Below the pieces are notes generated by a model. The model made no database searches, was not told the DNA's origin, and saw only the letters and a program-made list of their open reading frames with translations. A stretch of DNA of 64,000 bases from Podarcis gaigeae (lineage: Eukaryota). Positions 1 to 54,776 of this stretch are shown one piece after another (the stretch's first letter is position 1; each line of letters begins with the position of its first letter). Position numbers and translations under genes: made by a program. The DNA lies in assembly GCA_964106915.2 (NCBI GenBank), contig OZ066915.1, one strand, 5' to 3'.

Positions 1-2015
1 AAAGAATAATAGCATTTATATAGCATTTTAGGGTGTTCAAGGTGCTTAGTGAACTTCTTGTAATTTTACAAAAATACCTGTGAGGTATTATTGCATAACA
101 CAGGCGGGGTGGGGGCCTGAGGCTGAGAGAAGAACTTGCCTAAACCCTTTGTAAGGGTAGCCAGCATCGTGCCCTCCAGATGTTGTTGGACTCCCCTCCC
201 CATCGGTCTCAGCCATTGTGGGCAGTGGTCAAGAATTATGGGAGTTGTAGTCTACCAACACCTGTCTGAAGGACGGCATGCTGGCTACTCCACCCTAGTG
301 AGTTCATGGCGAAAAAAGATTCAAAATAGGGATTTTCTGATTCGTAACCTAGTCTATGATGTACCAGCTCTGAAATGCACACAATTCCTGTAGCTCAAGA
401 TACCCTACAGGATTTTAAAAGGTTTTAGTCCTTGTAACAGGCAGGCATGGTGAGTTTTCCTTCCTCTTTTAAAGCAGGGTGGAGTAGGTATGAGCCTTAG
501 GTGCCAAGTAATGGGCAGAGGAGATAGATGGCAGTTGACTATGTGTCCTTTCATGCTGCTGCCTGGGATGTGTGTATAAAGGGCAAGGCATCTCTGTGGT
601 TTGTTTGGTATGTCTCTGGTGAAATGAGAGGGTGGAGTTTCTGTAGAAGATTTTGTGAGCAGAGAGTACCCTGCTTATTATGGGTAAGGAAAGCAGCATC
701 CTTTTCCTTCTCTCTGGATTCCCTTTCTCATCTTTCTAGGCTGTATCAGAGATCCTATAGAATGAAGCCCAAATTTCGTAGAAATGAGTTTTTTTGGATA
801 GAGATGTTCCCAGGGTTTGCTTTGTTCTGTGGCGTTCCTCCCACGCTATATATCGACTAGTGACTCATCTTCCTTTACAGGATCGGTTGCAACAGCAACT
901 TGTTCGGGGAAATAAAAACAAAAAACCACTTCATTTTCTACTGAAAGAGACTTGTTTTAGCATTCAGCTTTATTTTGGAGTGTCTTCAAAATTGCGGGAA
1001 ATTTGCCACCCACAGAACAGACAGGGTTGCCACTAAAATTCAGCCTGTATGTCAGCTTGGCCTCTGGTCTTGAATTTCAGGGCTAAAGTTTCAGGATAGT
1101 TTGGGGCACTTAAAATTATATGTTGGCACCTTGGAATCTTGACACTTTTTACTAGCTGTGTATAGGCCTGTCTCTTTGGAATGTGAAATAGAGTAAACAA
1201 GGACAGCAAGAAATATAATGCATTCTGGTTTGGAAAGAAAAATAAAAAACACACACACCAAACCTGCTTCTACATTTTAGCTGCTTTCCCCCTGTCCTAC
1301 CCCCAGTTTTCTGCAAACTGATGGAATTATTGCTATCTGCCAGTTAAAGTTACAGAACTTTAACGGAAAGGATGGCAGCTATTATCATGACTTGCTGGAA
1401 GTCCACTTCGGAGATGACCCCTCTCCCTGTGGCCGTCCTGTAAGGTAGACTAGAGCAATATGATCTTCATCCATGTTGAAATTTTCAATTTTCCCCTGGC
1501 TATAAAACAGGGGAAGCACCTGCAGCTTCTGAAGGTCCTGGAGCAGCAGAAGGTCCTCTGCATCCACCTGGCATCCATGGACATTCTGCTGCATAAGGCT
1601 GTTTAATGTATTCCAGGGTCACTGTCCTTTCTCTGCATCAGGGATGGGGATCGTATGCCTCTCCAGATGCTGTGGACTCTAACTCCCACCATCCCCATCC
1701 CCTCTCTTGACATTAGCCATGCTAACTGGGTCTGATAGGAGTTGGGAGTCTGGCAGCCCCTGGAAGGCCACAGGTTCCCCATTCCTGCAGTTTTATGTAT
1801 CCATTTGTGGCTCATAAAATGTGATGGGGGTCTGTGAGAATTGTCCAAGCCCATTTCTAATCAATGTATGACTTGGCTCTCAGTATCAGTGTAATTCAGC
1901 GCTTTGTTTCTGTCTAAAACCCCTGGAAAGCCGCCACTGTGGAACAAGGTTGATTATATTAGATTAGGTGGACTATTGGTCTGAGTCTGTGCAAGGCAGT
2001 GTTTATATGCTCGTG

Positions 2016-2161
2016 CTGCTGCTGCTGCTGCGCCGCCAGAGCACGATTTCTGTTCTCATCCTGAAGCAAAGTGCTTAACCTGAAGCACTATTTCTGCGTT
2101 AACAGAGTCTGTAACCTGAAGCATATGTAACCTGAAGCGTATGTAACCCGAGGTACCACTG
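2016..2161. mobile_element. Tigger-like MITE family 1, truncated
   Basis: Right half only, ending AACCCGAGGTACCACTG|TA. Confidence 0.8.
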
Positions 2162-3974
2162 TACTGTGGAATTTGAGTCATTGTCATTCTATTGTGTTTT
2201 ATTGTGGGTTGGGGGAAAAACATTTTGATTATCAATATTTTCCTATTTCAGGTGTACTTATTAAAATGTCAATGAGCAGGATATTATCAGCAGGCTTGGG
2301 AACTGTCTGTCCTTGTAAGAATGGAGAGAGGAATTATTTGTCTGAAATATAAATGGTGCGATAAAGAGAGAACAAAAGTCCAACCAGATAAGACAGGGCA
2401 AAGACTGTTGTAGGTTTTTTAAAAAATCTACTTTGATGCATAATTCTAACCTAGAGTTGCTTTATGACATACAGTGACAGAGAATAGAAGCTGGACAAAC
2501 CTGGCTTGGGAATTCAGCATCTCTGGATGTTTTGGGTCAATTTGAGAATACTGGCCAGGTTCTCAGTTGAAAATACGTACCTGATAGTTGGGAAACCATG
2601 TCTTTTGCTATAATACAAGCTGTGCCATGTTCATTTTGAGCTTGAAATTTGTGTGTATTGATCATTATGATATATGTAGCTTAACCAGAGTTAACATTTA
2701 CTAACCCTGGAGTATTAGTTATGGTCAGACAAAAAAATCATAAATTATTTGACCTGAGAAACAGCAACGGTGCTGTTCCTTGTTAAAATTAAATAAATCC
2801 ATTAATGATTTCCATGTACAGAAAGTTTTCTGCTTATACAGTGGTTGATATCTGGAAGGCTTCCAGAGCTAAATAAAAATATGGTAAAAGGTTAGTCCCC
2901 CATTTCAGTAGCAAAAAACAGAAAACTTTCAAGAAGTGATAAATAGACACACACACACACACACACCACATTACTGATCTTTCCCTGTTTTGTATGCAGA
3001 TTTATATATTTCTGTGTCGTTCATGTTCTCTATAATGAGAAAGGACCAATTGCAGGGGTGGGGAACCTCCAGCCCATGGGCCAGTGTTGGTTTACCAGGT
3101 GGTCCAATTTGGCCTGTGAGGCCATTTCCCCAAACTTCAACTGGCTGGTGTTATCTGATGGGTGGGGAAGGGAGATTTCATGTTGCCTGGTGTTTCTTTG
3201 CCAGCCGCATTAAATGTGCATTAAATGTCATAATGACACCAGATGCTTAGCAGGCAGATGACTGTGCCCATCTGTCTAAGTTGACCTGTAGGGTAAGGGA
3301 AGAGAAAATCTGGCACGCTGGGCCAAAAATCTGCCCCATTCTTGCCCTGTTGCAAGAAGGCAGCATTGTTTTTATGGCATCTGTCAACTGGATGAGGTGA
3401 TCTGTTTGCCTGGATTGCTGTCTGGAGAATACAGTGGTCCCTGATAATACAAAAGCTGGTCATCCTTGGTTCTGAACTTATGGTCTTGTCTCATAAAGAT
3501 AATTTAAGATTTAATCCATCAAGTAATGTGTTTTGAGAAGTTCCACTTTCTCTGATTGTGGTTTTTGGGGTCCTGGTTTTATAACCACATAGGATAGTAA
3601 GTGATAGAAAAAGTAGCTGAAATGATTAATACCATAGGTGTTGTGTTGGCTGAGTTTTTAGATGTGTGATGTTTGACTAAAGTGGCTGTCTCTCGGGGAT
3701 AAGATCAAAGGAGGGAACTATCCAAAGAAATTGAAGGGCTTCAAACGAGGAAGAGCTCGTGTTTTTGAGCTTTCCATACTTGTTTTCTTTGACTTGCATA
3801 TGAACTCAAATTTAACACTTTTTGAGCGACTGTAAACCCATTGACTTAATACATGATTATGAGAGTTCATGACTTCAGTTGTTTATTTGCAGTGTTGTTC
3901 AAACCAGTAGCATACTGCCTGTTTCAGCAAACACTGAAACTTGTTCATATCACAGATGAGCACAGGCAGGTAGG

Positions 3975-4137
3975 AGAGGGGCTAGATGCAAATGCTTTGC
4001 ATGCAGATGGTCCCAGATGGTCCCAGGTTCAACCCCCATAAATTCCAGTTTAAAATACATCAGGTAGCAGGTGCTGGGAAAGACTCCATGTCTGAGGTCC
4101 CAGAGAGCCTGGTATAAGCAGTTTCTTAGGTTCCTAT
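3975..4137 (+). mobile_element. Degenerate Squam3-like SINE
   Basis: tgctttgcatgcaga..ggtcccaggttcaacccc and tail gcagtttcttaggttccta. Confidence 0.5.
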
Positions 4138-5262
4138 CTACAAAACATTCAAATTTAACCAGTGCTTAAAGTCATCATGCAGTGTACATTCCTTGACCTT
4201 CTTTGAACAAGTTCTGAATCTAGAACTAAAACAACAGCGAAAGAAACCACTGCTGTCATTCTCTGCTCTTAGATAGGCTTTCATTAGTATTTGTCTGAAT
4301 TTACTGTGATGTTGCTGCTGTTTTTAAAGCCAGTTTGCACTCTGCTTTTCTTTGAATTTTAGTGCAGCTTTGGTGTTGCCTGCTTGATATCAGTTGTCAA
4401 GCTGTCATAGGGAATTCTCAAGCTCCTTATTAGCTTAGGAGAGGGGTGGGAAACCTGTGGCCTTCCAGATGTTGTTGTTGGACACTAACAGTAATATCAG
4501 CCCCAGCCAGCATTGGCTCCAACCAGCATAGCCTATGGTCCGGGATGTTGGGAGTTGCATTCCAGCAACATCTGGAGCGCCACAGGTTCCCCAAACCCGG
4601 CTTAGAAGTCCCATAAGATAGAAGATATGGGGACCATTGCTCTAATCCAGTGAGGGTGATGAACATCCATGAGTGCAGTTTTTATCCTTGGCTTCCTTCT
4701 CTTTGCCAGATTGCTATCCATCACCTGAGGTTGGGTGCTCAGTGCCCGTTGTTGGGTTGCGACTCTGTATACAGTGGCTATCAGGATTCCTTTGTGACTA
4801 TGTAAGCCATTGCACTTAAGATGAAAGCATGGGTGGATACCTTGCTTTTAAGCGAGTGCCCTGAAGGTAAAAGGGCTGATGGGTGCAGCCCACTAACCTT
4901 CCGCAAATTTGAGCTAATATGTTGGAAGCCCTCGGCCTTGTGAGGTTTAGAGCAGCTGGCTCCCTTTGTCTCCCCTGTCTCCATCCCTAGGGTAAGTGTG
5001 ACTGGTGCCAGTGCCCTTCTTCCCCAGCCAAAACTGTCAGTGTTGTCAGACGCTACCATTGTTCTGGTGCATGCACGCCTTAATCTGTTGCTGCACATGA
5101 TCTTTTGATCAGGGTTTTTGTGTTCCAGTGATATCCCACAGAAATGAGAGAATGCACTATTTAGATGAACGAATACATAGTACCCTTCATAAGCCTCTAA
5201 TGGTAAGCGTAATACAGAAACCCTAATGAAATAAATGCCTAATCTTTATTTCTTTGTTCTAG

Positions 5263-7090: not shown

Positions 7091-7999
7091 ATGAACACCT
7101 GTGTCCAGCCATCTCTGTGGAGGAGGGATTACAGCTGGCATATCAGGCTGAACTGGTGAAAAGGTGCTTTGCGCCATTGATGCCATTTGTGTTTCTGGCA
7201 GCAAATCTAGATTAAGGAGTAACTTCAAACTGAGGAGCTGATGCTTTTGGTTTGGGGGTTACAGTTCCATTCAGAACAGTTTGGACACCATCTTCCTTAT
7301 AGAACTCATAATTACAAATTTCACTGGGCAGTTTGCACCACTGTCTTAGTTGTCCTATTAATAATTGTGTAGGTCTGTTGGCTGTCACAAAAACAGCAGC
7401 ACCCTCAAGTTATTCCATGTGCAGAATCTTCACATTCTAAACATTTTATTGGTATGTTTCTGCACCTTATCTATCTGCATACTGGCTAGTATTGCTCCTT
7501 TCCTGGCACTCATTCATCCTGGGACTATAAATGCGCAAACCTTTTTTATCTGTTAAGAACTAAAAATAGCATACTTGTAGTTTGGACTGTAATTATTCTT
7601 TTTTCAATTGCTCACATGGGATAAGATTTATTTTTATAGTATATAATCTGTCTTCCTTTAAAAAAAAAGTTCACAATTTTGCACTCATTTCACTGTTGGT
7701 AGTAGAATACAATCACTGAATAGGCCTTGAACCCAAATCATTTTTTTTGCTGTGTGTAACATAGCCTTGGACAAAGGACTTCATGTGTCTCTTTGGGACC
7801 CCACCTCCCCTGCCCCATGCTTATGTGTCAGTCTTGGGAGTTTCTAGTTATATAACAGTAATTCTCAGTGTTTGGATTGTTTGTCAGTGAGTCCTTGGAT
7901 GCTAACAAATACTAGCAAATTTTCACTTGTCTTTCCCACAACTGCAAAAGCTTATTTTAGTAGCTGCAATCTTTCCTTCCCCAAAGTTACACATGGGTA

Positions 8000-8239
8000 C
8001 ACTGGTACCTCGGGTTAAGAACTTAATTCATTCCAGAGGTCCGTTCTTGACCTGAAACTGTTCTTAACCTGAAGCACCACTTTAGCTAATGGGGCCTCCT
8101 GCTGCCGCTGCGCCACCGCTGCACGATTTCAGTTCTTATCCTGAAGCAAAGTTCTTAACCCGAGGTAATATTTCTGGGTCAGCCGAGTCTAACCTGAAGC
8201 GTATGTAACCTGAAGTGTATGCAACCCGAGGTACCACTG
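8000..8239. mobile_element. Tigger-like MITE family 1
   Basis: TA-flanked, TIR CA(G)TGGTACCTCGGGTT, internal AACCTGAAG repeats. Confidence 0.88.
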
Positions 8240-14351: not shown

Positions 14352-15542
14352 GTCCTGAATTTAACAAATGGGTCTGCCACTGTCCATTTGAGCCTTGGAG
14401 GCAAACACAGGATACGGGTTCCACGATGAGCATTGATCTCTCTTTCAAATGGTTAGGTGCTATTTGAAAAACTCTCTAGTCTTACATTTTCCACTGTTTA
14501 GTCAGTGGTCCCTGATGAAATGTTTCTGTGCTGTTTTTTGGCCCTTCCTCCTCAACCATTTCCCGTCCTTCACTGCCGTTTCCCATTCTGAGCATGCATG
14601 CATGCATTAAAAAAAATATATATCACAGGAGATGAACAAGATTAGATATCACAAGCCTCTAATAATCATGTTTCACAATGGGCAATATGCAGGCTTGTGC
14701 TTTTGAGGGTGGGAGGAGCAGTTTCCATTGGGAGCCTTTTTAACAATAGAGGTCTTATTCAAGACTGATATTCAGCTATTCCAAAATTCTGTTAGAGGTC
14801 TTATGTAAAAGCTCTGTATTTATTTATTAACACACACAGTCCTGAGATAGTTTCCAAGGTAGTTCCACCACATATGTTGAAAGATCATGCAAGATGAGCT
14901 CCTGAAATTCCAGCATTCCTTCAGCATGCAGCAATAGGTGGAAATGGTCACGCTCATATCGTTTAGACTGACAGAAACGAAATGACTAGGTTGTGGTCTG
15001 ATGAGAAGCAAACAGCAGTAAGGGTATGATGATAGACACCACCCACCAAAACATTTACTGTGCACATGACAAACTGCTCACCCCAAAAATGTGCTAACAA
15101 GCTTTCACACCAGTGGTGATGGTTGGAGTATAACAAGTTGTTTTTCCTTAATGCATTTTCCTTGATAAGAGGAAATCCAGATTAAATGTAGCAAAAGAAG
15201 TATGGGCAGGCATTTTGATCGCAGCAGTGGCCTGTGGGAGGTGCAGAAAGCTTGTGTGCATGAGCAATATGCCTCTGTCTGGAAGGACCAGTTATCAAAT
15301 TTCTCTAGCAGATTTCCCATCAGTTCTGTTAGAAACCCTTTTCCCAAGAATTCCTGCAGATATGGTGCTCTATAAGTGAGACAGGTGAATTTCACTTATG
15401 CATTCAGCTTCAAGGTGTGTCTCAAAATATGGATATAGCAAAATGAACAATAAGATTTCAGCAGTGGTGTCAATATTCAACCTGTGAGGAATTATATTGG
15501 TGCTGTACTCCGCTCCCAGAAACTGCTGCTTTGTTCACTATA

Positions 15543-15904
15543 AGGTAAAGGTAAAGGTACCCCTGCCCGTACGGGCCAGTCTTGACAGACTCTGGGGTTG
15601 TGCGCCCATCTCACTTAAGAGGCCAGGGGCCAGCGCTGTCCGGAGACACTTCCGGGTCACGTGGCCAGCGTGACATCGCTGCTCTGGCGAGCCAGAGCTG
15701 CACACGGAAACGCTGTTTACCTTCCCGCTGGTAAGCGGTCCCTATTTATCTACTTGCACCCGGAGGTGCTTTCGAACTGCTAGGTTGGCAGGCGCTGGGA
15801 CCGAGCAGCGGGAGCGCACCCCGCCGCAGGGATTCGAACCGCCGACCTTTCGATCGGCAAGTCCTAGGCGCTGAGGCTTTAACCCACAGCGCCACCTGCG
15901 TCCC
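15543..15904 (-). mobile_element. Sauria/Squam1 SINE, subfamily A, full length
   Basis: GGGACGC head, B box GGTTCGAATCC, (ACCTTT)n tail. 13-bp TSD tttgttcactata at 15530-42 and 15907-19. Confidence 0.92.
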
Positions 15905-16406
15905 TATTTGTTCACTATAGTACCGTATATAAGAGACTAGCAGTAAACTTGACATTATTCAAGTGCCATTATCTAAAATTAATCACCAACATCCAGCAGT
16001 TTGTTGATTTCCCCAAATACCCCTTTCAGCCTTGATCTTCCATTCCAGCATAGCAATAAATTATTTGACTATTTTATTTAGGAATTCAAATAATCACAGC
16101 TTGTGTGTTGAGTGAAGAGGAGTGGAGTGGGGGAAACCCTCAATGCAATGTCTGTCTGCAGGTCCACTGCATGAACCAGCACGTTTAGAGACTCATCTCA
16201 CCTTCATACTGTTGACTGAGAAACAGGTCAATGTGCATGCAGTAAATATAACAGCCCTCATAAACTGTGAATCTGTATTTAGAACTGTTGGAATGAATTG
16301 GCGGTCTTGGCACTGCCATGCTGCATGCTCTTGCTGTCAATTTATGGAGCCTTTTCCTCATTTTACAGGCCTTGGCATCCACTTTCTTGTTACTTTTATT
16401 TATAAC

Positions 16407-17188
16407 CAGCGGCGTAGCGTGGGTTATCAGCACCCGGGGCAAGGCAAGTAATTTGCGCCCCCTAACCCGGGGCAAGGCAAGTAATTTGCGCCCCGTAACC
16501 CGGGGCAAGGCAAGTACAGTAATTTACTCTCCCAAGCAGCAGCAGCGAGGCTTCTCTTTCCCCCGCGCTCTCCCGGAGCTGCCTCTTTTCTTTCCTTTTT
16601 TCCCTTTCTCCAAGGCTTTTCGCTTTCTCTCCTTAATTGATTCCCCCTCCACACCGCAGCGTTTCCTGGCTGCTTCCCCCCCCCCTTCCCCTCTCTCTCC
16701 TCCTCGCTCTGCTTGCCTTGCCCTGCCCTGCCTGAGGGCGCCCTGAGGAGACTCCGCTCTCCTTTCTGACCAGGCGAGGTAGAAAAAAGGGGGGAAAGTC
16801 TCTTCCCGCCCCCTCGCCAGACTCCCGGCTCCGCTCGGCTAGGCTCACTACCCAGGCGGCCAGTGGAGAGAGAGCAGCAATTACCATAAAGTTCCTCTCC
16901 CTCCACTTCGCCAAGCTGTCAAAGCCCGGCAGCAGCGGCAACGGCAGCAGCAGGCGCAGCCAGACCCCCACCAGCCCGCCCGCCCGCCCGGCTTCCTCTC
17001 CTTTTTTTGCCCACGGCAGAAGGCTTTGCTCTCCCCCTTCTGCGACCTCCTCGCCAAGCCGAGCGAGCGCGGGCTCCCTAACCCGTGGATTTTAGTAGGG
17101 GCAGAGAGCTGCTAGTGCGAGTGCGCCCCCCGCCCAAGTTGCGCCCGGTGCGGCCGGCACCCCTGGCACCCCCCACGCTACGCCACTG
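16407..17188. mobile_element. Young non-autonomous hAT-type transposon with CpG-rich interior
   Basis: TIRs CAGCGGCGTAGCGTGGG / CCCACGCTACGCCACTG. Perfect 8-bp TSD tttataac at 16399-406 and 17189-96. Subterminal 33-bp tandem repeats at 16432-16516. Confidence 0.88.
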
Positions 17189-18125
17189 TTTATAACAGAA
17201 GATCTTTCAAGTTGTGCCTTGAGCAGGAGGGGGATAAAAAGCATTGCATCATTACCTACTTTGGAAATGGCTTTTAAATATGTTTTTAATGACTTGGTTC
17301 TATCTGTACCTGTTGGTTTTACTGTGAGTGCTTCCTTTCCCTTCTAACTTGTTTGCCTAGAGATAAGCTATACTGTTTGATGCAGCCATTTGAAACCAAT
17401 CAAACTTAAAGATTCTGCTGCTTTTCTGTCCCAATTGCCTGTGAAGTTTTGCTCCCCAAAGGTTTTGTGTATACCTTCTGTGACACAGCTGTTCTTTTTC
17501 CTCCCAACTGTGTTTGTGTAACAAGACCACATTCGTCATCTGGATTGATTTACCAACAACTTACAACCTCTTGGTTTTGCTAGACATGAATTGAGACCAG
17601 TGGGAATGACTTGCTTTTAAACTATTTTTGTATTGTGTGCTAAAAGGTAAAAAATGTATTAAGATTTAACCAACCTTGTTAGCTCTACACCATAGCATCA
17701 CTGCAGCCCAGGGGAGCTATAGGAACAACAGAAACATAATAAACTCCTGAACCCTGGATGTCAAAGAAGATGGAAACTCTTTAAATATGAGGGGTAACTG
17801 GGAACCAAGGTCTCTGAAATAAGGAATCCATTGAGAACCACCACAATTTTTGTTGAGAGAAGGAAGTATATTTCAAAGAGAACTAGAACTATTTTTCTTC
17901 AGATAGAATTATCTTCCAGAGAATTAGCATGCCTGTTTCTCTTGTTGCATGAAGGCTAGTGGGAAATGTTATCTGAAATAATAACATCTTATATAAGCAA
18001 TAATAGGCTCTAAGAGTGGAAAAGTACAAGATTCAAGGTTCAGTACCTAACTCTGTAGTATAAATAAAATCTGCAGATACAAATAGTCTTAGTTTTGTAG
18101 GTCCACCCCCTTCCTTTCAGCTGTA

Positions 18126-48254: not shown

Positions 48255-49220
48255 CAGTGGTGCCTCGCAAGACGAAATTAATTCGTTCCGCAAGTCTTTT
48301 CGTCTTGCGAGTTTTTCGTCTTGCGAAGCACGGTTTCCCATAGGAATGCATTGAAAATCAATCAATGCGTTCCTATGGAAACCGCCTTCAGACCAGGTTT
48401 GGGGACAGTCTGTCCCCCGACCTCTTCTGAAGGCCGACGGGGGGCGAAAGTCTTTGCTTCCCCCCCCCCTTCCCGGGACAGCGGAGACTTCTCTGCTGTC
48501 CGGGGCGATCTTAAAATGCTGGCGGGCGGCAACGCTGCCGCCCGCCAGCATTTTAAAATCCCCCGGGAAGGCAGGCAGGGGGGACAAAGACTTTTGCCCC
48601 CCACCCGCCTTCAGCAGAGGTCCAGAGGGCTCTCCAAGCTGCGGATAGCAGCCTGCTGCCCCGCGCGAGGGGCGCTCTTAAGCAGAGCGCCCCTCGCGCG
48701 GCGCAGACATTCGCAGCTTGGGGAACCCTGCAGGACTTCCCCGCAGGGCTCTCCAAGCGGCGAATGTCGGCCCCGCGCGAGGGGCGCTCTGCTTAAGAGC
48801 GCCCCTCGCGCGGGGCAGCAGGCTGCGCACCTTCCCCTCTGTTCCCGGACCTGTCCTGAAGGCTTGCGGTGGGAGGAGGGCTTTCCTCCCCACCGCCAAC
48901 ATTCAGAATGCTGTTCTGAATGTTGGCGGTGGGGAGGAAAAACCCTCCTCCCACCGCAAGCCCCGGGAACAGAGGAGAAGCGCTGCGCACCTTCCCCTCT
49001 GTTCCCGGACCTCCCACCTCAAGCCTTAGGACAGGTCCGGGAACAGAGGAGAAGGCGCGCTGCGCTTCCCCACTGTCCCCGGAGATTTCCCTATGGGCTT
49101 TCGTCTTGCGAAGCAAGCCCATAGGGAAATTCGTCTTGCGAAGCCGCTAAAAAATCGGAAAACCCTTTCGTCTTGCGGGTTTTTCGTTTAGCGAGGCATT
49201 CGTCTTGCGGGGCACCACTG
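48255..49220. mobile_element. Tc1/mariner (Tigger/pogo-like) non-autonomous element with palindromic GC-rich interior
   Basis: TIR CAGTGGTGCCTCGCAAGACGAA / TTCGTCTTGCGGGGCACCACTG, TA TSD, multiple subterminal TTCGTCTTGCG motifs. Confidence 0.9.
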
Positions 49221-49429
49221 TACTGTACTAAGCTGGAACATGCAAGACTAGACAAAGGAAAAGTCTGCCAATGGGAAATATTTTAAGTCAGCAGCAGGAC
49301 ATAAAGTCTTTTTCAAGGACATGCTAGATAAGAGAAAAAAGTCTACTTAGGATGAAGACAGGAGCTCTTGAACAAGTTGACAGGTGCTGGACAAGTCATG
49401 CTACAGGAGGTTTACAAAAGAGGTGCAAA

Positions 49430-54576: not shown

Positions 54577-54776
54577 NNNNNNNNNNNNNNNNNNNNNNNN
54601 NNNNNNNNNNNNNNNNNNNNNNNNNNNNNNNNNNNNNNNNNNNNNNNNNNNNNNNNNNNNNNNNNNNNNNNNNNNNNNNNNNNNNNNNNNNNNNNNNNNN
54701 NNNNNNNNNNNNNNNNNNNNNNNNNNNNNNNNNNNNNNNNNNNNNNNNNNNNNNNNNNNNNNNNNNNNNNNNNNNN
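54577..54776. other. Assembly gap (200 N)
   Basis: Run of exactly 200 N, a round number suggesting a placeholder of unknown true size. Confidence 0.98.

What the first reader, a model, noticed from the sequence alone, without database searches (positions are those of the whole stretch)
16407..17188. Pack-type hAT element carrying apparently captured CpG-island/5'UTR-like cargo
Seen: near-perfect TIRs, perfect 8-bp TSD and 33-bp subterminal tandem repeats sharing TTGCGCCC with the right end. They enclose about 590 bp (16520-17110) of non-palindromic CpG-rich sequence with GC boxes (CCCGCCC x several), (GCA)n/GGC runs, pyrimidine tracts and TAAT/CCATAAA homeodomain-like motifs, and no transposase ORF. 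The surrounding intron is CpG-depleted. Inference: a young non-autonomous DNA transposon that captured a host promoter or 5'UTR fragment, like plant Pack-MULEs, and dropped an instant CpG island into the VDR 5' region. Such capture elements are little described in reptiles, to my knowledge.
Basis: partly seen in the sequence, partly recalled or inferred. Interest (0 to 1): 0.7.

Follow-up and report, generated by a model that had tools for sequence, protein, structure and literature searches.

The report
Lizard transposon family swapping gene promoters
A small cut-and-paste jumping element in a lizard genome carries a 550-base copy of the CpG-rich DNA at the likely start of the developmental regulator gene BCOR and has spread it to about 90 places, and elements with the same ends carry the CpG-rich starts of other genes to tens or hundreds of places, a scale of gene-switch copying rarely reported for this kind of element in animals, though the copies appear to be methylated and none is shown to work.

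Summary
Confirmed and extended. Window 16407-17188 is a 782-bp non-autonomous hAT element with 17-bp TIRs and an 8-bp TSD; the site is empty in two related organisms. Of 94 genomic loci holding its interior, 91 are TIR-bounded copies, 2 are truncated and 1 lacks TIRs. That donor lies in a large CpG island ~43 kb upstream of BCOR coding exons. In one relative the interior is single-copy, which fixes the direction host to transposon. A 4.8-kb partner with an open hAT transposase frame shares only the ends. The same ends carry other cargos. All 4 donors found are CpG islands: BCOR, a likely GNAL first exon (302 hits), a Frizzled 5' region (42 hits) and an unnamed island. Two cargos replaced the GNAL cargo at 3-bp and 16/17-bp homologies, suggesting template-switch capture. 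CpG decay (4.3% vs 0.9%) argues against working 'instant CpG islands'. Pack-TIRs are known in animals, but multicopy cases were 4 of the reference-genome set. This scan noted Pack-hATs before on other DNA (CENPW in this genome; HCN1, TPR, DNAH10 elsewhere).

The parts
16407..17188 (+). Whole 782-bp non-autonomous Pack-hAT element (BCOR-cargo family)
   Evidence: empty site skipping 790 bp in X17 and X20
16399..16406 (+). Left copy of 8-bp target-site duplication
17189..17196 (+). Right copy of 8-bp target-site duplication
16407..16423 (+). Left 17-bp TIR; first 66 bp match the end of the autonomous partner L258:2530-7364 at 92%
16432..16516 (+). 33-bp subterminal unit, 2.6 copies; its core motif occurs 1-6 times among family members (2 in 45, 3 in 35 of 88)
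16517..16525 (+). 9-bp filler resembling the subterminal unit; junction of a secondary deletion from a longer (850-bp cargo) form (inferred)
16526..17076 (-). Captured host CpG-island DNA from G000:C8:49417882-49418402, likely BCOR promoter/5' region; BCOR sense is the window minus strand, antisense to VDR
   Evidence: single-copy in X20
17073..17095 (+). Remnant of the left subterminal sequence of the autonomous element (its bases 51-73)
17095..17188 (+). Right end, matching bases 4750-4835 of the autonomous element (the end upstream of the transposase frame); includes right TIR 17172-17188

Best explanation
This is one of about 90 transposed copies of a non-autonomous hAT element whose interior is a copy of a single host CpG island at the likely BCOR promoter, probably pasted in by template-switching repair and likely mobilised by a co-resident hAT transposase with the same ends. 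Steps: (1) shown: an autonomous-type 4,835-bp element with an open 825-aa transposase frame and thousands of short derivatives share these ends. (2) Inferred: repair of a break inside a short derivative switched template to the BCOR island and copied about 850 bp, then returned to the element. (3) Shown as structure, inferred as order: a ~330-bp deletion with a 9-bp filler gave the 551-bp-cargo form, which then transposed to ~90 sites with distinct TSDs, one of them upstream of the VDR coding exons in one lineage only. (4) Shown: other cargos in the same ends also come from single CpG islands, and two retain the tail of an earlier cargo, so capture is serial. (5) Inferred: most copies are methylated passengers rather than working promoters.
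For: Donor without TIRs: 1 of 94 loci; the match stops at the cargo boundaries while the CpG island continues for kilobases. Direction: run X20 holds the shell ends at very high depth but the interior at depth 13-36 against flanks of ~34, in one 1,529-nt contig; 10 of its 12 listed differences from the window copy equal the G000 donor allele; it also keeps a 25-bp stretch that 87 of 88 copies have and the G000 donor lacks. Transposition: 84 of 88 copies have perfect TSDs, 3 have one mismatch, 87 distinct TSDs; empty site in X17 and X20. Single origin: left junction in 88 of 88, right in 87 of 88. Longer form L344:8188-9238 has a TSD, the same right junction, 850 bp of donor and donor-like alleles. 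Partner: PF14291 + PF05699, perfect TSD, matches only element bases 1-66, 667-689 and 689-782. Other donors: L137, L208/L209, L333; GC 0.64-0.73, CpG o/e 0.73-0.94, against 2 of 298 flank windows passing GC>=0.6 and o/e>=0.65. Junction homology: 5 bp at the GNAL left junction, 3 bp and 16 of 17 bp between new donors and the retained GNAL tail.
Against: The BCOR junctions themselves show only 0-1 bp of microhomology in the short form, so the repair mechanism is borrowed from sister families. The L055 family (30 of 30 fetched) carries a complete internal mini-element beside its cargo, which fits fusion of neighbouring insertions better. The link between the donor-adjacent exon and BCOR mRNA rests on strand, position and a 3,998-nt contig leaving at a GT, from runs only guessed to be RNA; no joint to BCOR coding exons was seen. 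Only one full-length partner copy and one deleted copy were found among 50 stretches examined, drawn from part of the 90 hAT-domain hits; activity is untested. The cargo sample was enriched for one end variant, so the CpG-island bias is from a small, non-random sample; one composite (L040) has a 225-bp insert of GC 0.56.
Confidence: 0.85

Rival explanations
1. Capture by fusion of neighbouring insertions: two mini-elements landed about 0.85 kb apart in the BCOR island, moved together with the DNA between them, and later lost their inner ends.
For: Model described for plant Pack-TYPE elements (PMC8903248, passages). The BCOR element has a left-subterminal remnant to the right of the cargo. L055-type, L056 and L040 composites keep whole internal mini-elements inside one outer TSD.
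Against: No TIR at the boundaries of any of the 4 donors in G000. The Frizzled and C31 cargos join the retained GNAL tail at sequence homologies, which needs recombination with an existing Pack element.
Confidence: 0.2
2. The copy upstream of the VDR coding exons works as a portable promoter or enhancer and changes VDR regulation in this lineage.
For: Cargo still meets classical CpG-island composition; the copy is young (0.8-1.3% from its five nearest sisters) and lineage-specific; the donor lies 145-160 bp upstream of the 5' end of two transcript-like contigs.
Against: Transitions at CpG positions run at 4.3% against 0.9% at other C/G in the cargo, 67 of 74 CpG positions hit (rare variants only: 1.3% vs 0.5%). 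BCOR-sense orientation is antisense to VDR. No functional data.
Confidence: 0.1
3. The interior is just the GC-rich non-coding end of an autonomous hAT, or the BCOR island segment itself came from the transposon.
For: This is true for a sister family: the ~390-bp L045 type matches bases 4171-4209 and 4540-4835 of the autonomous element.
Against: The BCOR cargo has no match to the autonomous element, has one TIR-free host donor and is single-copy in X20.
Confidence: 0.02

Closest known systems
Multicopy animal Pack-TIRs, e.g. Pack-hAT-N8_XT carrying the CAPSL 5' UTR (Tan et al. 2021, PMC8277862; seen: passages)
   Same: Non-autonomous TIR element, host 5' sequence inside, distinct TSDs, unlinked TIR-free parent; the paper notes multicopy cases tend to capture high-GC DNA and proposes fork/template switching.
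   Different: That survey found 4 multicopy cases (1.4%) in reference genomes, the frog example at 3 sites. Here one end-family holds at least 5 cargo families of roughly 20 to 300 copies, with serial cargo replacement and an open-frame partner.
Plant Pack-MULEs and Pack-TYPE (including Pack-hAT) elements (PMC8903248; seen: passages; Pack-MULE figures as cited in PMC8277862)
   Same: Recurrent capture of gene fragments into shared ends, multicopy families, composites of neighbouring elements. The GC-rich, 5'-end preference of Pack-MULEs is seen only as reference titles and otherwise recalled.
   Different: Vertebrate host; cargos are CpG-island promoter/5' regions, mostly non-coding.
Bat Helitrons such as HelibatN3 with the NUBPL promoter (Thomas et al. 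2014, PMC4224331; seen: passages)
   Same: Vertebrate DNA transposons that captured promoters, 5' UTRs and first exons with a 5' bias, sequentially, and amplified them to high copy number.
   Different: Rolling-circle elements without TIRs or 8-bp TSDs; far higher copy numbers; different capture chemistry.
Anolis hobo_AC non-autonomous families with filler DNA (Novick et al., PMC3014272; seen: passages)
   Same: Lizard hAT families with shared ends, family-specific interiors, capture of extraneous DNA and inter-element recombination.
   Different: Filler there is described as often other TEs; host promoter donors are not identified in the passages seen.

Membership tests
hAT superfamily (non-autonomous) | 8-bp TSD | tested here: met
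   Perfect in the window and in 84 of 88 copies
hAT superfamily (non-autonomous) | Short TIRs starting YARNG | tested here: met
   17-bp TIRs starting CAGCG/CAGTG; motif as given in PMC3014272
hAT superfamily (non-autonomous) | Autonomous partner with hAT transposase and the same ends | tested here: met
   L258:2530-7364, 825-aa frame from first Met, PF05699 E 7.8e-12, PF14291 E 3.3e-16
hAT superfamily (non-autonomous) | Mobilisation by that transposase | not testable with these tools
   Needs a transposition assay
hAT superfamily (non-autonomous) | Placement in a hAT clade (Ac, Buster, Tip) | not tested
   No tree built; a Tip100-like affinity is only recalled
Pack-TIR / Pack-hAT | Non-TE host sequence between the TIRs | tested here: met
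   Donor L085, 89% with gaps, 16 of 517 substitutions to the copies' majority
Pack-TIR / Pack-hAT | Parent copy not linked to the transposon | tested here: met
   No TIR match (up to 3 mismatches) in the 40 kb around the donor
Pack-TIR / Pack-hAT | Multicopy class: transposition after capture, distinct TSDs, empty orthologous site | tested here: met
   87 distinct TSDs in 88 copies; empty site in X17, X20
Pack-TIR / Pack-hAT | Microhomology at capture junctions | tested here: inconclusive
   0-1 bp for the short BCOR form; 5 bp, 3 bp and 16/17 bp at three sister-family junctions
Functional CpG-island promoter | GC>0.5 and CpG o/e>0.6 over >200 bp | tested here: met
   0.63 and 0.66 over 551 bp
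Functional CpG-island promoter | Unmethylated state | tested here: inconclusive
   Indirect only: CpG transitions 3-5 times above other C/G sites across copies point to methylation; this copy not measured
Functional CpG-island promoter | Transcription start or enhancer activity at the copy | not testable with these tools
   Needs CAGE/ATAC/reporter data from a carrier

The most novel reading that the evidence does not exclude
A vertebrate hAT system that preferentially and serially samples CpG-island promoters of regulatory genes (BCOR, a G-alpha, a Frizzled), swaps one captured promoter for another through short homologies, and has scattered several hundred ready-made promoter fragments through a lizard lineage, some of which escape methylation and rewire nearby genes such as VDR: a cut-and-paste counterpart of plant Pack-MULEs and bat Helitrons, still testable because an open-frame transposase survives.
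Probability: 0.25. Interest if true: 0.82.

Novelty: new variant of a known kind. Interest (0 to 1): 0.62.

Why it matters
In animals, TIR-transposon capture was reported as mostly single-copy and transposition-independent, with few multicopy cases. Here one lizard hAT end-family has repeatedly captured CpG-island gene starts and amplified them 20- to 300-fold. Donors, an intermediate form, empty sites, a relative lacking the family and an open-frame transposase are all available. That makes two open questions directly testable in a vertebrate: how cut-and-paste elements acquire host DNA (template switch or neighbour fusion), and whether transplanted CpG-island fragments keep or lose their unmethylated, promoter-like state. 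It also warns that hundreds of promoter look-alikes can confuse annotation and read mapping at BCOR, GNAL-like and Frizzled loci in these lizards.

Tried and rejected
A 22-bp exact pattern gave 17 hits; the one new place (L061) was another copy, not the donor. The first DNA search scored only 40 of 415 candidates and missed the donor. Motif scanning of the donor region for homeodomain/zinc-finger exons was uninformative; a codon-bias exon scan found the gene. The 951-aa large exon had no Pfam or PDB hit; BCOR rests on PF15808 in an exon ~14 kb further along the same strand plus recalled sequence likeness. The 201-aa likely GNAL-XL frame had no Pfam hit; the name rests on a recalled motif and its position 38 kb upstream of a Gs/olf-type first exon. 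FZD5 as subtype is recalled; Pfam says Frizzled. No gene was assigned to the C31 island. The L055-family donor was not found (40 of 141 candidates scored); L056 and L040 donors were not sought. The multicopy 658-aa and 730-aa hAT-domain families do not carry these TIRs. No RNA holder was listed on record for the donor stretch; RNA reads over the cargo could not be split between donor and copies, so they are not used as evidence of expression. The look-up of earlier findings by this sequence returned nothing. A FastTree rooted on the donor gave distances of 0.044-0.095 for 85 copies and was used only descriptively. Paper searches found no description of this family or of BCOR/GNAL/Frizzled capture; Repbase/Dfam and the supplements of PMC8277862 and PMC3014272 were not seen and could list related elements.

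Full report
Observation. The sequence shows a 782-bp element at 16407-17188 with 17-bp TIRs matching at 16 of 17 bases and a perfect 8-bp TSD. The TIR pattern has exactly 2 hits in the window against 0.24 expected. A 33-bp unit is repeated 2.6 times at 16432-16516. The cargo (16526-17076) has GC 0.63 and CpG o/e 0.66; the flanks have o/e 0.16 and 0.14. Six of 128 500-bp bins in the window are similarly CpG-rich, so composition alone is not special. The host gene is VDR; the element lies about 18 kb before the first coding exon.

It is a family. The interior gave 40 full-length matches of 93-100% among 40 scored of 415 candidates. Two interior patterns gave 89 and 88 hits with 0 in the reversed controls; their union is 94 loci, all fetched. 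Of these, 90 are short-form elements (88 analysed, 2), 1 is a longer form, 2 are truncated and 1 has no TIR. Among the 88, 84 have perfect TSDs, 3 have one mismatch, 1 is offset, and 87 TSDs are distinct. Copies differ from their majority by 2.0% on average in the cargo. The left junction is shared by 88 of 88 and the right by 87 of 88, so there was one capture followed by transposition.

The donor. L085 (G000:C8:49417882-49418402) matches element bases 120-670 at 89% including gaps, 16 substitutions in 517 columns to the majority. It sits inside a CpG island of several kilobases within a ~60-kb CpG-rich region, with no TIR in the 40 kb scanned. On the minus strand, a 951-aa open frame lies ~43 kb away and a further exon hits PF15808 BCOR at E 5.7e-30. 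Two contigs from runs guessed to be RNA cover L126:7605-8122 and 7605-8138; one is 3,998 nt long and leaves the stretch at a GT after 520 nt. The short cargo starts 145-160 bp upstream of these contigs' 5' ends. I therefore call the donor the likely BCOR promoter/5' region; the splice to BCOR coding exons is inferred, not seen.

Direction and age. Laying four runs on 15900-17900: X15 runs into both element ends with no differences (it may be the assembly's own sample, so it is not independent). X17 and X20 each have one contig that skips 790 bp, the element plus one TSD copy. X20 has the shell ends at summed depth ~500,000 but the interior at 13-36, like its flanks (~34), in one 1,529-nt contig. 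X17 has the interior at 550-5,000. So the organism of X20 has the transposon and the donor but not the Pack family. Ten of 12 listed X20 differences equal the G000 donor allele, and X20 keeps a 25-bp stretch that 87 of 88 copies have and the G000 donor has lost. Contig depths are rough and show presence, not absence, but the contrast is two orders of magnitude.

The longer form. L344:8188-9238 has a TSD, a damaged left TIR, the same right junction, donor-like alleles and 850 bp of donor (L126:7954-8803), reaching 169 bp into the transcript-like exon. The common form is most simply a ~330-bp deletion of this, sealed by a 9-bp filler.

The partner. A PF05699 search gave 90 matches (150 of 316 candidates scored); 50 stretches were examined. 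L258:2530-7364 is a 4,835-bp element with the same TIRs, a perfect TSD and an open frame of 825 aa from the first Met with PF14291 and PF05699. It does hold for a sister family: the ~390-bp L045 type is a plain deletion derivative.

A capture system. The left end has 5,331 exact hits. In a C1 sample of 64 TSD-bounded elements, partly enriched for one end variant (8 further left ends had no TSD-bounded partner and were left out), 32 were 125-212-bp empty elements, 6 were L045-type (one with a SINE-like insert) and 26 carried other DNA. Donors were found for all four families whose hits could be listed or targeted: BCOR; a likely GNAL XL first exon (302 hits); a Frizzled 5' region (42 hits, 40 of 41 non-donor loci with TIRs and TSD); and an unnamed island on C31 (20 full copies). 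Their GC is 0.64-0.73 and CpG o/e 0.73-0.94, while 2 of 298 flank windows pass GC>=0.6 and o/e>=0.65. A fifth CpG-rich family (30 of 30 fetched with TIRs and TSD) had no donor among 40 of 141 candidates scored. The Frizzled and C31 families end in the tail of the GNAL cargo and join it at a 16/17-bp and a 3-bp homology; the GNAL cargo joins its parent at a 5-bp homology. This is what template switching from an existing Pack element predicts. Against a single mechanism, the fifth family, L056 and L040 keep whole inner mini-elements, as neighbour fusion predicts (model in PMC8903248), and the BCOR junctions show 0-1 bp of homology.

Function. In the cargo, transitions at CpG positions run at 4.3% against 0.9% at other C/G; 67 of 74 CpG positions are hit; counting only rare variants gives 1.3% against 0.5%. 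By established knowledge of methyl-CpG deamination this points to germline methylation of most copies. The BCOR-sense strand is antisense to VDR. Nothing here shows activity of this copy.

Comparison. Tan et al. (PMC8277862, passages) report 370 animal Pack-TIRs, with four multicopy cases in reference genomes, including a frog hAT with a CAPSL 5' UTR at three sites; 'lizard' and 'reptile' do not occur in the main text, though an alligator case does. Novick et al. (PMC3014272, passages) describe anole hobo elements that take up filler DNA, often other TEs. Thomas et al. (PMC4224331, passages) describe bat Helitrons with 5'-biased promoter capture at high copy number. Nine paper searches found no account of this family; Repbase, Dfam and supplements were not seen. 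This scan's earlier notes list a CENPW-carrying hAT in this genome and HCN1, TPR and DNAH10 cases in other genomes; I did not test them and they are not used as support.

Verdict. A real Pack-hAT with an identified donor, a new variant of a known kind. What is unusual is the scale, the CpG-island bias and the serial cargo exchange in one vertebrate cut-and-paste family. Capture and amplification are shown; the repair mechanism is inferred; regulatory effect is untested and, for most copies, unlikely. Interest 0.62.

Noticed in passing
L258:2530-7364 (G000:C2:65527529-65532363); deleted copy L259:3579-6456: 4,835-bp hAT element with perfect TSD and an open 825-aa transposase frame (PF14291 + PF05699); candidate autonomous partner of thousands of short elements.
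   Followed up: partly
L137:2752-3122 (G000:C16:49813752-49814122): 371 bp with the 5' region and first 18 codons of a likely GNAL XL exon, captured in the same ends; 302 pattern hits genome-wide, 8 copies checked for TIR and TSD.
   Followed up: yes
L333:1514-2106 (G000:C1:131245013-131245605): 593 bp ending ~530 bp upstream of a Frizzled start codon, captured in the same ends; 40 of 41 other hits have both TIRs and a TSD; joins the GNAL tail at a 16/17-bp homology.
   Followed up: yes
L208/L209 (G000:C31:12943738-12944863): Isolated CpG island, gene unassigned, donor of a ~1.3-kb Pack family (20 full copies, 1 truncated, 2 internally deleted).
   Followed up: partly
L055 and L264-L293: A fifth multicopy CpG-rich cargo family (at least 40 copies) with a complete mini-element at its left and an extra right end; donor not found. 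L056 and L040 are similar composites.
   Followed up: partly
L344:8188-9238 (G000:C19:69099187-69100237): 1,051-bp longer BCOR-cargo element with a damaged left TIR, overlapping 169 bp of the transcript-like exon; likely close to the original capture.
   Followed up: yes
L244-L248 and L249-L252, L260, L261: Two other young multicopy hAT-domain families with open 658-aa and up to 730-aa frames and different ends.
   Followed up: no
window 48300-49230: GC-rich (0.66, CpG o/e 0.75 at 48501-49000) element with repeated CGTCTTGCG-type subterminal motifs and internal palindromes; another DNA-transposon-like CpG patch inside VDR.
   Followed up: no
window 15501-15900: CpG-rich (o/e 0.84) patch 500 bp left of the element that resembles a young lizard SINE (label recalled).
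   Followed up: no
L339, about 8.3-7.7 kb before window base 1 (G000:C2 ~14313700-14314300): CpG-rich promoter-like patch with GC boxes and a plus-strand GT donor; candidate VDR first exon (inferred).
   Followed up: no
window 54577-54776: 200-base run of N (assembly gap or withheld stretch).
   Followed up: no
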